Shown: one piece after another, positions 16,787-22,287 of the stretch
How positions within the stretch are numbered: position 1 is the first letter of the stretch
Layout: the number at the start of each line of letters is the position of its first letter
Assembly (NCBI GenBank): GCA_043228905.1
Contig: JBHGNT010000053.1
Location: forward strand, 62,001 to 126,000
Direction of reading: 5' to 3'
Origin: Azolla caroliniana
Lineage: Eukaryota; Plantae; Polypodiophyta
Length of the DNA: 64,000 nucleotides
Program-made: the position numbers and the translations under genes
The notes under the pieces: model-generated
The model's database searches: none
Seen by the model: the letters and a program-made list of their open reading frames with translations, nothing else
What the model was told of the DNA's origin: nothing

Positions 16787-17639
16787 CATAAGTGGGGTTT
16801 CTTTCAAATTTATGCAATAGTTTGAGCTTATACCGTTTACACACCTACTTTGTCTTATAAATGGCTACAGAAAAGTAATGAATCTTAAAAAATCCTCTAG
16901 GTTTCTTACGAAGCCAAATCAGCATCCTTGGCTAGGCCTAAAGAGTTTTTCCATCTGGCTGTAACTCCTTTATTTCACATCCATGTCATTCATTGCTCTT
17001 TTTAGTAATTTCCCAACTAAGTTAAACTAAATCAAACATACCATACCATACCAAATTAAACCAAATCAAACATACTATAGCATACCAAACCAAATTAAAC
17101 TAAATCAAACATACCATACCATAGCAAATTAAACCAAATCAAACATACTATAGCATACCATACCAAATTAAACTAAATCAAACATACCATACCATACCAT
17201 AGCAAATTAAACCAAATCAAACATACTATAGCATACCATACAACTAAATCAAACATACCATACCATAGCAAATTAAACCAAATCAAACATACTATAGCAT
17301 ACCATACAACTAAATCAAACATACCATACCATACCAACTTAAACCAAATCAAACATACTATAGCATACCAAACCAAATTAAACTAAATCAAACATACCAT
17401 ACCATAAGTGGGGTTTCTTTCAAATTTATGCAATAGTTTGAGCTTATACCGTTTACACACCTACTTTGTCTTATAAATGGCTACAGAAAAGTAATGAATC
17501 TTAAAAAATCCTCTAGGTTTCTTACGAAGCCAAATCAGCATCCTTGGCTAGGCCTAAAGAGTTTTTCCATCTGGCTGTAACTCCTTTATTTCACATCCAT
17601 GTCATTCATTGCTCTTTTTAGTAATTTCCCGACTAAGTT
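16787..17639 (+). repeat. 237-bp direct duplication (16787-17023 and 17403-17639) enclosing satellite array B (17024-17402); also 46409-47261
   Basis: Both flanks read cataagtggggtttctttcaaa...tagtaatttccc(a/g)actaagtt with one mismatch seen. The insert is the same pentamer satellite as array A. Confidence 0.95.
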
Positions 17640-20600
17640 GAATCTGCTTTAACCTCTTTATGTAAATGCCATTTCTCCTTATCATCATTCATTTGCTCCA
17701 CCTACAAATAAATTTGATATCATTCAGGAACACACGCTCAAATGCAATGAACAAGATGATATAAATCCACGGGGGATCATAGAACTCTTCATATGAGAAA
17801 TAAAAACAGGCAACAAAAAACACATCTTTACTAGTTCAGACAATGGTAGCACATACCCAAGCACTTAACGGTTTCTTACGATGCAATGTATCATACACAC
17901 ACGTGTATGATGGAACAACCATGTAACTTGATCTTAGTAGAACTTTCTAGGGTTTCCAAATTTCTACCCAAGTGCAAGTGACACATCACTAACAAGCATA
18001 TACATAAGGTAGCAATGCACATTCTGCTAATGCATTAAAACGATATTGTTCTGTGAAAATGGAGTACCTGAAGCTTGCCGATGCCCCTGAGTGTGCTTTC
18101 ATATGCAATGACTGAGTAAGCAAAAGCATATCCAAGATAATCAAGGACAAACGAGTCTGACACGTCTCGCTGTCAATATGATATGCAAGCATGGCATATT
18201 TTAGTCCATAAGTATTTCCCTTTGTTTCTAATTCTTATTGGCTAGAATTTACCTGCCACCTTGGGACGGGCAGCTTTGAGCTGAAGTGTGACGAAATAGC
18301 ATTAGCAAGTCCGAGATTTCCTTCACTATTTTCAAAATCAATAGGATTTACTTTGTGTGGCATAGTTGAAGAACCAACTTCACCAGCTTTGACACGCTAC
18401 ACAATCCAAAAGCAGAAAATTAAGTCGCGGGTTTAATGTACCATAGAGGCCTTTAACTACAGTAATAGGATGAAATTAGAGAAGCAATTTCAAATATATA
18501 GTCATATGCCCTGAAGGGTATAATATTAAAGGATAATTATATACCTGCTTCAAATAGCCTATAGAGATGTAGCTGCAGATATCCCTATGAAAAGCAAGAA
18601 GAATATTGTTGAACCGTGAAATAGAATCGAACAGTTCTGCAATGTCATCATGTGGTTCAATCTGGCAAATACAACGTGGAATTAAGTCAAGCAAAAGAGA
18701 CTGAATCTTCGTAGAAGACACTTGAACTAAATGCTTAACAAAAGCTTCTAGACCTGAGCGACAAAAGGATTGAAATCCAAGCCTAGCGAGGAGACAAAAG
18801 CTTCTGCAATAACTTCCCACTTAACGTTAGGATATGCAACAACATGAGCATTGTAATTCCCATCGGCTCCTGCAATCTTTCCTCGAAACTTGGTGGCAGA
18901 AATTTTCAGATATTGTTGCTCGAGCCTGTAACAAATGTTTGCCATCTCTTTTCCAAGAGTAGTAGGCGATGCAGGCTGTTACATGCATTGAAAAAATATT
19001 ACACGCTTGTATAAACCATTATATAAATCACGTTACTTTTAATTATACTATTATACATTATTCATAATCTGTGGGAAGCAACAGCTTCCACACACCCCAA
19101 CTGTATGAGTGAGAGTCAGCATTCTTTACAAGTCAGAATAAAATCAATTTCACACAGGTAGTACTACTTCTCAAATGTCAACTTCAGGTGCATCGGTTGT
19201 TTACCTGACCATGTGTTCGAGAGAGCATTGCTATGTCACTATACTCACGAGGAAGTGAACGAAGCGACTCGATAAGTTCTGCCATAATTGGGAGAAGTAT
19301 TATGTGTACAGAATGTTGCAACATCAATCCACGTGCTAGATTATTGATCTCCTCTGATGTACATGCAAAAGGTATGAACTCCAACACCTAGTGCCACAGG
19401 CAGAGGACACATTAATTAGATTTCGGAAAACATTATGAGCGACCCTTGATACAGAGGCAAAACGGAAGAATCGACCATGTATTTGCTCAATTAGTGCATA
19501 TAATTCTCAATGATAGAACAAGGGCATTTGAGGAGTAAGCAAAAAGTCAGGCATATTTTGATCTTAAAATTCCTTCCATCAAAGAGAAATGTACTTTTTC
19601 TTGGAGTCAACCTTGACGCTACTACCATGTACCTTCTCAAGTTCAGGATGTGAGCGGCATTTGTCCTTTAAGACATACTCGACGGCCTTTACATCATGAT
19701 TGGTAACTCTTTCAACACCCTTGACAGCACGGGCATCAGCCAGGCTGAAATTCAAAGCGATACTCTCCAAAAATAGTCGAGCATCTTCACTAAATAAAGG
19801 CACTTGTTCAACTTCAGGAATTTGAGACAGCTTCAATAGCCACTGCACCTGCAAGATTTGCTATGCCAACACTCTAAATGATCCCACAACACACAAACTA
19901 TCTGATAGATGACCAAATAATATTGTTGTTTATTTTCAATATTATTTTCATGCATATGTCTCAGACCTTGATAGAATTGCAAATGCAGGAAAATAAGTAG
20001 TTAATGTGTGTATTTCTGTGTTTAACTATGTATTTTATATCGCATACATCTTTGCGTGCGTATTGTGTATATGTATGTGTGTGTATTATGTATATGTATA
20101 TGTATATGTATATGTAGATGTAGATGTAGATGTAGATGTATATGTATACACATTCACATATATGTACATATGTGTCTACAATATTGTGATGTATTGAAAG
20201 AGCCAGAAGAAAGGTGAGGAATATCAAACCTCGACAAGCACTCGGTAACGGATCAAACCGTACTGACTCAGATAGGACCTTAGCTTCTTCAGCTGCTGCC
20301 CACCGTAGCACCCATCCAGAGGCGAGATTGCCGTCAATTCGAAGACCTCTGACTCTTCTATTGCACTCTCCATACTAGAACAAACAGTCTGCGAGAGAAG
20401 TTCAGGAATGAATTTAAAACATCCGGATGAAGTTTCCATTGAATATACAAATACATTGTATGCATATGCATATGCATATACATTGTATGCACATACATCG
20501 TACACATACATCATACACATACATTATATATTATATGCATATACATTGTATGCATATGCATATACATTGTATGCATATGCATATACATTGTATGCATATG

Positions 20601-22287
20601 CATATGCATATACATTGTATGCATATGCATATGCATATACATTGTATGCACATACATCATCCACATACATCATAAAAATACATTATATATTATATGCATA
20701 TACATTGTATGCATATGCATAGACATTGTATGCATATGCATATACATTGTATGCATATGCATATACATTGTATGCATATGCATAGACGTTGTATGCATAT
20801 GCATATACATTGTATGCATATGCAGCATAGACATTGTATGCATATGCAGCATAGACATTGTATGCATATGCATATACATTGTATGCACATGCATATGCAT
20901 ATACATTGTATGCACATACATCATACACATACATTATATATTATATGCATAGACATTGTATGCATATGGATATGCATATAATATATATGTATATGCATAT
21001 GCATATACATTGTATGCACATACATCATACACATACATTATATATTATATGCATAGACATTGTATGCATATGGATATACATTGTATGTATATGCATATGC
21101 ATATACATATATATTATATGCATATACATTGTATGCACATACATCATACACATACATCATACACATACATTATATACATATGCATATACATATATATTAT
21201 ATGCATATAGATTGTATGCATATGCATATACATTGTATGCATATGCATATACATTGTATGCATATGCATATACATTGTATGCATATGCATATGCATATAC
21301 ATTGTATGCATATGCATATGCATATACATTGTATGCATATGCATATGCATATACATTGTATGCATATGCATATACATTGTATGCATATGCATATACATTG
21401 TATGCATATGCATACACATATATATTATATGCATATACATTGTACACATACATCATACACATACATCATACACATACATCATACACATACATCATACACA
21501 TACATCATACACATATATCATACACATACATCATACACATATATCATACACATACATTATATACATATGCATATACATATATATTATATGCATATAGATT
21601 GTATGCATATGCATATACATTGTATGCACATACATCATACACATACATCATACACATACATTATATACATATGCATATACATATATATTATATGCATATA
21701 GATTGTATGCATATGCATATAGATTGTATGCATATGCATATACATATATATTATATGCACATGCATACACATTGTATGCACATGCATATATATTATATGC
21801 ACATGCATACACATTGTATGCACATGCATACACATTGTATGCACATGCATACACATTGTATGCACATGCATACACATTGTATGCACATGCATACACATTG
21901 TATGCACATGCATACACATTGTATGCACATGCATACACATTGTATGCACATGCATACACATTGTATGCACATGCATACACATTGTATGCACATGCATCAT
22001 ACGCATACATCATACATCATATATATGTTTATTTATTTAATTATTTACATCACAACATGAAGAATAAATATATTGACCTTGAGGGAGGTGATTATGTGTG
22101 CTTTGGAAGGTTCAGAGGAAGCGGCGGTTAGGCAGAAGGAACTTCTGTATCTTCGCATGTGGATGCGTTGGGGAGGAGAAGGAAGAGGTAGCCGGGGGGA
22201 GCATGGAGGAGTCCTGCTGCTGGAAGCATGCGGAGATGGGCCAACGAAGAAGGATGCCAACGCTCTGGCATCAGAGGCCCAAGGCAT
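17633..22287 (-). CDS. Adenylosuccinate lyase-like protein (fumarase/ASL superfamily) with transit peptide; divergent; 9 exons, 473 aa
   Basis: Exons 22287-22078, 20388-20230, 19848-19633, 19387-19205, 18975-18754, 18661-18545, 18396-18253, 18169-18068 and 17701-17633. All are GT-AG and phase 0 with no internal stop. Motifs are [66 protein letters not shown] and RWQRD. The last exon is the least certain. Confidence 0.9.
20452..22020. repeat. ~1.6 kb compound AT-rich minisatellite filling ASL intron 1 (21-bp catatacattgtatgcatatg / catacacattgtatgcacatg, 6-bp catatg and 14-bp catcatacacatac units); ~50074-51671 in copy 2
   Basis: Tandem units read directly. They explain the spurious YAYAY and HMHMH ORFs. 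Confidence 0.95.

What the first reader, a model, noticed from the sequence alone, without database searches (positions are those of the whole stretch)
17633..22287. Intact but active-site-remodelled adenylosuccinate lyase paralog: candidate neofunctionalised plastid lyase
Seen: nine phase-0 GT-AG exons give an uninterrupted 473-aa ORF with an N-terminal Ser/Pro/Arg-rich transit-like peptide. Catalytic motifs are intact ([27 protein letters not shown]). Positions that are normally invariant are changed: DGRY to DGCY, HFACTSEDINN to [20 protein letters not shown] to [16 protein letters not shown] to AQIEPHD, and SRWQRDLTDSTVLRN to [15 protein letters not shown]. Known, recalled from bacterial-type PurB structures: the Arg of DGRY and the Arg of STVLR contact the nucleotide ribose-phosphate. 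Inference: losing both arginines, one by charge reversal to Asp, while keeping the acid/base residues and the succinyl-binding loop suggests a beta-elimination or addition enzyme acting on a different, possibly non-phosphorylated, substrate rather than random decay.
Basis: partly seen in the sequence, partly recalled or inferred. Interest (0 to 1): 0.82.

Follow-up and report, generated by a model that had tools for sequence, protein, structure and literature searches.

The report
Fern purine enzyme copy, pocket rebuilt
A fern carries a tandemly repeated extra copy of the purine enzyme adenylosuccinate lyase that has lost both phosphate-gripping arginines and its whole lid domain, so it likely no longer does the normal job and is either being reshaped for a phosphate-free substrate or slowly decaying.

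Summary
The nine-exon model and every listed substitution are real, but the gene is not intact. The roughly 75-residue domain 3 of ASL is absent, and the modelled exon 9 is unrelated sequence beyond a break in intron 8. The gene is a fern ASL paralog, present twice in a 29.6-kb tandem array beside dynein and LeuRS fragments. A 99%-identical relative (L002) has the same pocket changes and still holds exons 9-10, cut by a stop codon. A sister paralog (L001) is a pseudogene. Spliced contigs of the variant lie beside a canonical-motif form in one run. One contig from another organism has Glu where the window has Asp (Arg344). For selection: about 25 replacement versus 2-3 silent changes in exons 4-8, a hot spot in the phosphate-site segment, and an open frame. 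For decay: the changes are as damaging as random ones, sparing of catalytic residues is not significant, and the lid that orders the catalytic loop is gone. Best reading: selected loss of the phosphate clamp toward a non-phosphorylated succinyl substrate, then truncation (0.45). Decay 0.40; non-catalytic role 0.15. An active new lyase in this copy: about 0.25.

The parts
22078..22287 (-). Exon 1, 70 aa, transit-peptide-like
   Evidence: junction to exon 2 not tested against RNA
20230..20388 (-). Exon 2; DGCY (R97C = E. coli R15), one-codon insertion and five-codon deletion relative to L001
   Evidence: exon 2/3 junction from loose ends in all four runs
19633..19848 (-). Exon 3; TNHD kept
19205..19387 (-). 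Exon 4; H201P (first residue of conserved region C1), D208E, H214R; catalytic His of RTHGQ kept
   Evidence: window-identical contig in X1 (record 7)
18754..18975 (-). Exon 5; V294D in the GAVG loop (window only, not L002), T329A
18545..18661 (-). Exon 6; Y336D, D355H, W359C, F367L
   Evidence: window-identical contig in X1 (record 2)
18253..18396 (-). Exon 7; catalytic SS loop unchanged; L407F, S414P
18068..18169 (-). Exon 8; hot spot L420V, T424F, R427D (E. coli R344), N428Y, L431Y, L433F
   Evidence: variant-type splice junction in X1 at depth 71
17715..17716 (.). Break in intron 8 where likeness to L001/L002 ends; canonical exons 9-10 (domain 3) are absent beyond it
17633..17701 (-). Modelled exon 9 (22 aa and stop): not ASL-derived, use unproven; retention of intron 8 would give 461 aa
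47255..51938 (-). Second copy of the gene, all nine exons identical
1..29614 (.). One period (about 29.6 kb) of a tandem array of at least 2.2 periods, 99.5% identical
27794..32953 (+). 3' part only of a dynein heavy chain gene, in the repeat unit
7241..11362 (-). First three exons only of an organellar leucyl-tRNA synthetase gene, in the repeat unit

Best explanation
This is a recent fern duplicate of adenylosuccinate lyase that has lost both phosphate-binding arginines and its lid domain, likely because selection rebuilt the nucleotide pocket for a succinyl compound without a phosphate, after which the lid was cut off and the gene was repeated in tandem. Shown: the sequence changes, the presence of a canonical-motif form beside it, splicing of the variant, domain 3 ended by a stop in L002 and absent in the window, and the array. 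Inferred: the order stop-then-deletion; selection on codons 337-350 (E. coli numbers); the substrate. The kept His171/Ser295 pair and succinyl-binding residues would still break or make a C-N bond to fumarate, while Cys, Phe, Asp and Tyr in place of Arg15, Thr341, Arg344 and Asn345 would repel a phosphate and suit a free hydroxyl or an amine (succinyladenosine, SAICA-riboside or another N-succinyl amine). Whether the lidless array copy is still active is open: about 0.25 of the 0.45 is 'still active', about 0.20 is 'selected earlier, now dead'.
For: The phosphate of AMP is held by two Arg, a Tyr, an Asn and a Ser (PMC2917274); exactly the two charged ones are changed, and 9 of the 11 catalytic and binding residues listed in PMC13539675 are kept. 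Exons 4-8 on the variant branch: about 25 replacement versus 2-3 silent changes, P 0.011-0.089 against neutrality (branch assignment). That is 4.2% of replacement sites, against 4 of 245 sites (1.6%) on the same branch in intron 3. Six changed codons in one 14-codon stretch, P about 0.01. In codons 335-345, 12 nucleotide events over three paralog lineages, none silent, P 0.02-0.04 (events counted by hand); codons 341 and 344 are hit in all three. One spliced contig of organism C reads RDSLDSSVLE. No stop in exons 2-8 (P 0.11-0.15) and both exon-2 indels in frame; combined P 0.04-0.09. Variant and canonical-motif contigs have similar depth in X1 (65 versus 56 and 104). Two of three new prolines fall in loops of the model of fern ASL P0005. 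A 359-residue CMLE exists in this superfamily (2fel; that it lacks domain 3 and is active is recalled).
Against: Mean damage score and hits at conserved columns match random missense (9 of 23 observed, 8.8 expected; P 0.44-0.63), so no purifying selection on the core is visible. Sparing of 14 catalytic residues P 0.35, of the 33-residue loop P 0.08. H201P hits conserved region C1, W359C a fully conserved core residue, and V294D the loop that positions the substrate-binding Gln. Domain 3 closure orders the catalytic loop in human ASL (PMC6301967). The exons behind the stop in L002 changed at the same rate (8 of 175 sites, P 0.83). With less favourable assignment the excess is not significant (P up to 0.34). 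The sister paralog L001 has two stops. The other two genes in the unit are fragments. The organism C evidence is 30 letters of one contig. The tests were chosen after seeing the data. No substrate evidence of any kind.
Confidence: 0.45

Rival explanations
1. It is a transcribed duplicate that has been free of constraint since it arose and is decaying: random missense, then a stop in exon 9, then deletion of exons 9-10 and passive amplification with other gene fragments.
For: Random-like severity and spread; pairwise pN/pS with L001 of 0.93-1.2 in exons 3-8 and 0.92-1.16 behind the stop; equal rates before and behind the stop; dead sister L001; dynein and LeuRS fragments in the same unit; R97C is a CpG transition.
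Against: Open frame over exons 2-8 with two in-frame indels; three codons in exon 8 with two or three changed bases; recurrent, only non-silent changes at the same codons in three lineages; few silent changes on this branch.
Confidence: 0.4
2. It is kept as a non-catalytic protein: domain 2 still builds tetramers, so it would join canonical subunits and damp ASL activity, or serve a binding or structural role, as delta-1 crystallin does for argininosuccinate lyase (recalled).
For: Frame kept through the end of the tetramer-forming domain 2 and cut just behind it; each active site is built by three subunits (PMC13539675); co-occurs with the canonical-motif transcript in X1.
Against: Core helix changes (W359C, D355H, S241P) would harm assembly; loss of activity does not need repeated changes at the same codons; co-assembly was not tested.
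Confidence: 0.15

Closest known systems
Adenylosuccinate lyase, E. coli PurB type (PF00206 + PF08328; 2PTQ, 2PTR; plant plastid ASL)
   Same: 80% identity to fern ASL P0005 over the core and nested among fern ASLs; exon structure as in L001/L002; catalytic His and Ser, SS loop and succinyl-binding residues kept.
   Different: R15, T341, R344, N345, H118 and others changed; domain 3 (ASL_C) absent; a canonical-motif form exists beside it.
[quoted passage not shown]
   Same: Same fold and SS loop used for other fumarate adducts: what it may work like.
   Different: Those are distant microbial families; this one is a few percent DNA divergence from a plant ASL, and no activity is known.
Agrobacterium CMLE (2FEL, 359 aa)
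   Same: Short superfamily member; recalled as active without the C-terminal domain.
   Different: Different subfamily and reaction, with an Arg in the catalytic role (PMC11880804).
delta-1 crystallin (recalled)
   Same: Recent duplicate of a housekeeping lyase of this superfamily that lost activity but was kept.
   Different: Full length, from argininosuccinate lyase, known structural role.

Membership tests
Aspartase/fumarase superfamily | GSSxxPxKxN SS loop | tested here: met
   exon 7 unchanged; motif as given in PMC13411527
Aspartase/fumarase superfamily | Conserved regions C1 and C2 | tested here: inconclusive
   C2 (RTHGQ) intact; C1 begins with Pro instead of His and has D208E next to it
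Aspartase/fumarase superfamily | Homotetramer with shared active sites | not testable with these tools
   only the canonical fern relative P0005 was folded; the spliced protein itself was not
Adenylosuccinate lyase (descent) | Groups with plant PurB-type ASL | tested here: met
   clade of window, L002, L001 (100/100) inside the fern group (21 rows; P0123 skipped)
Adenylosuccinate lyase (function) | Phosphate-binding Arg15 and Arg344 | tested here: not met
   Cys97 and Asp427
Adenylosuccinate lyase (function) | Catalytic His171 and Ser295 | tested here: met
Adenylosuccinate lyase (function) | C-terminal domain 3 (ASL_C) | tested here: not met
   absent in window; behind a stop in L002
Adenylosuccinate lyase (function) | Cleaves adenylosuccinate and SAICAR; complements purB | not testable with these tools
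   needs an assay
Pseudogene | Stop or frameshift in the coding region | tested here: inconclusive
   none in exons 1-8; truncation after domain 2
Pseudogene | dN/dS equal to 1 | tested here: inconclusive
   at or above 1 on the variant branch; excess significant only under some assignments
Helitron-captured cassette | Hairpin plus CTRR joined to TC at the unit junction | tested here: not met
   0 hits on either strand of one unit in a simple scan

The most novel reading that the evidence does not exclude
A fern genus has turned the essential purine enzyme ASL into a new, lidless plastid enzyme that adds fumarate to, or removes it from, a phosphate-free amine or nucleoside. The pocket is still diversifying between species, and the gene has just been amplified in tandem: a new plant pathway caught at a few percent DNA divergence from its parent.
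Probability: 0.25. Interest if true: 0.85.

Novelty: new variant of a known kind. Interest (0 to 1): 0.52.

Why it matters
ASL is among the most invariant enzymes of plant metabolism: 187 of 200 homologues differ at no more than 2 of 139 conserved columns. No report of a remodelled plant or fern ASL paralog appeared in the listings of four literature searches (open-access library only). If active, it would be a plant fumarate-adduct enzyme with new specificity, would show that this subfamily can work without domain 3, and the short series canonical form, L002 form, window form, organism C form allows each step to be tested. If dead, it is an ordinary but well-resolved case of duplicate decay.

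Tried and rejected
No whole genome is held, so a canonical ASL elsewhere in this assembly could not be shown directly. No run was on record as RNA; splicing is read from intron-skipping contigs. X1 shows no cover of the modelled exon 9 and no join from exon 8 to it; a hole in contigs is no evidence. Exons 1-2 were not compared with RNA contigs, so R97C in transcripts and the intron 1 junction remain open. Protein searches found no variant-type ASL: best hit 82% to exon 5 among 1779 candidates, and of the 120 listed relatives of P0005 none showed the variant motifs. Canonical exon 9 is not hidden in the window. The sequence that precedes the window's 3' segment in organism B is not in L001 or L002, so the size of the lost piece is unknown. 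ASL and organellar LeuRS carry tags of different chromosomes in Ceratopteris (35 and 03), so no old synteny explains the unit. A Helitron-type junction was not found. Assembly artefact for the array is unlikely: units 1 and 2 differ by 8 substitutions outside the microsatellite intron. Frameshift as the cause of the odd C-terminus was rejected once L002 showed the real exons 9-10. Earlier findings of the scan: nothing relevant. No paper on the recalled role of B. subtilis His89 was held; Tsai et al. 2007 was not held. The fold of P0005 matches E. coli PurB but gave no contact list.
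Full report
Gene model. The finding lies on the minus strand. Eight exons from 22287 to 18068 have phase-0 GT-AG ends and translate without a stop into 451 aa; an AG at 17702 gives a further 22 aa and a stop at 17633, 473 aa in all. 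Closest relatives are ferns: 82% in exon 5 to unnamed P0005 and 77% to Ceratopteris and Adiantum proteins. In a tree of 21 rows the window, L002 and L001 form a clade (100/100) within the fern group, with a stem of 0.13 and a variant branch of 0.097.

Not intact. Fern ASLs continue for about 87 residues after GIGKLQ, including the conserved WEVLAEPIQ segment; the window does not, and tblastn at E 10 finds no such sequence in 64 kb. The modelled exon 9 has no Pfam hit, whereas the last exon of L002 matches ASL_C. Whichever 3' end is used, the protein stops 10-22 residues after domain 2. In human ASL, domain 3 closes over the active site and orders the catalytic loop (PMC6301967, passages).

Surroundings. 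The window is a tandem array with a period of about 29.6 kb; positions 1-34341 match 29615-64000 at 99.5%, and all nine exons are identical in the second copy. Each unit also holds the 3' part of a dynein heavy chain gene, the first three exons of an organellar LeuRS gene, retroelement pieces and three blocks of a 73-78-base satellite. The unit is thus a patchwork of truncated genes, so amplification alone does not argue for function.

Relatives. A degenerate exon-8 pattern found two loci in metagenome contigs. L002 differs from the window at 4 sites between exon 2 and the break, one of them coding (V294D, window only), and still has exons 9 and 10, but with TGA at codon 12 of exon 9 and seven later replacements. 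L001 is 91.6% identical, close to the canonical motif, and has stops in exon 3 and at the Arg344 codon. The likely order is duplication, pocket changes, stop in exon 9, then loss of exons 9-10 with amplification. The order is inferred.

Transcripts. Of 9 runs listed (RNA status guessed by the tool) 4 were laid, one per organism, on exons 3-9 (40 of 103 difference rows shown). Joins across introns 4, 5 and 6 appear in all four, across intron 3 in three (loose ends in the fourth), and the exon 2/3 junction as loose ends in all four. X1 has two forms: contigs identical to the window in exons 4 and 6 (depth about 65) with a variant-type join across intron 7 (depth 71), and contigs with canonical residues (depth 56 and 104) whose exon 8 reads RDLSDSTVLR. 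So 6 of 8 modelled junctions have support, introns 1 and 8 do not, and a canonical-motif ASL is expressed alongside. At 18863 all X1 depth shows Val, as in L002, so the expressed variant may be the L002 form and not the array copy; contigs also collapse single differences. One spliced contig of organism C reads RDSLDSSVLE, beside the canonical form. A low-depth contig of organism D joins exon 8 to the segment that forms the window's 3' end, which suggests that this segment lay downstream of an ASL gene and that the break is a deletion. Whether the canonical-motif form is the housekeeping gene or itself a paralog could not be tested.

What is changed. By ungapped numbering, Cys97 and Asp427 replace E. 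coli R15 and R344, Leishmania R40 and R370. In S. aureus PurB the AMP phosphate is bound by Arg4, Tyr5, Asn276, Ser306 and Arg310, and the GAVG loop positions Gln212 (PMC2917274, passages). The Leishmania paper lists 2 catalytic and 9 binding residues and calls Arg40 critical (PMC13539675, passages and section 18); only the two arginines are changed here. H201P is the first residue of conserved region C1 in that paper's numbering. In all, 14 of 139 conserved core columns differ, 12 of them on the variant branch, against at most 2 in 187 of 200 homologues (200 of 224 proteins used, by length). Normal ASL activity is very unlikely (inference).

Selection or decay. L001 against L002, exons 3-8: 13.25 silent and 42.75 replacement differences, pN/pS 0.93-1.2; introns 40 of 1281 sites. 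Assigning changes with the canonical letters gives about 25 replacement and 2-3 silent changes on the variant branch in exons 4-8 (P 0.011-0.089), but the four silent differences in exon 3 and one each in exons 2 and 8 cannot be assigned, and the least favourable splits give P 0.16-0.34. In intron 3, 4 of 10 differences fall on the variant branch. The exon-2 core differs at 12 codons, 1 of them silent. For selection: the exon-8 cluster (P about 0.01), no silent change among 12 events in codons 335-345 over three lineages (P 0.02-0.04), and the kept frame (combined P 0.04-0.09). Against: damage scores and hits at conserved columns equal random missense, sparing of catalytic residues has P 0.35, and the exons behind the stop changed as fast as those before it. 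Purifying selection of the usual kind is excluded; neutrality is strained but not excluded. These tests were chosen after seeing the data and rest on few changes.

Mechanism. If active, the enzyme would use the kept His and Ser and the SS loop for beta-elimination or addition on fumarate, as across the superfamily (PMC13411527 and PMC11880804, passages), on a partner that lacks a phosphate: an acidic residue in place of Arg344 in two organisms points to a hydroxyl or an amine. This is inference; no substrate is known. Working without domain 3 has a recalled precedent in Agrobacterium CMLE (359 aa chain). I put selected remodelling at 0.45 (0.25 still active in this copy, 0.20 active earlier and now dead), decay from the start at 0.40, and a non-catalytic role at 0.15.

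Novelty. By descent it is an ASL; by defining residues and domain 3 it fails as a functional ASL. Ten literature searches were run; the listings of the four aimed at plant or fern paralogs showed no such report, but subscription papers and supplements of fern genome papers were not seen. Verdict: real, new variant of a known kind, less clean than first read; interest 0.52.

Noticed in passing
window 1-64000: Whole window is a 29.6-kb tandem array; the start of the third unit equals unit 1 over 4727 bases but differs from unit 2 at 33998, a sign of very recent amplification or homogenisation.
   Followed up: partly
window 3965-4267, 17012-17406, 24311-25399: Three blocks of a 73-78-base satellite lie between the gene fragments of the unit; the middle block is flanked by a 240-base direct repeat (16787-17026 and 17403-17642) that holds the stop of the modelled exon 9. 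Possible scars of break repair.
   Followed up: partly
window 27794-32953 (+): 3' fragment of a dynein heavy chain gene with open exons, repeated in each unit.
   Followed up: partly
window 7241-11362 (-): Organellar LeuRS fragment (three exons) with a two-residue duplication just before GWDAFG; an unnamed protein P0225 is 98% identical to exon 1.
   Followed up: partly
window 20389-22077: Intron 1 is mostly a 1.5-kb degenerate TATGCA-type microsatellite and holds nearly all differences between the array units.
   Followed up: no
L002 2373-2860: About 490-base tandem duplication within intron 8, next to the place where the window's copy breaks off.
   Followed up: no
P0123: A further unnamed ASL reads SRLQRDLTDSTTLRN, with changes in the same segment; P0001-P0004 (Rosaceae) are annotated as double-length ASLs with canonical motifs.
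   Followed up: no
window 14255-15878 and 26471-27242: Retroelement pieces: copia-type gag (Pfam) with an integrase-like frame on the other strand, and an endonuclease-like frame.
   Followed up: no
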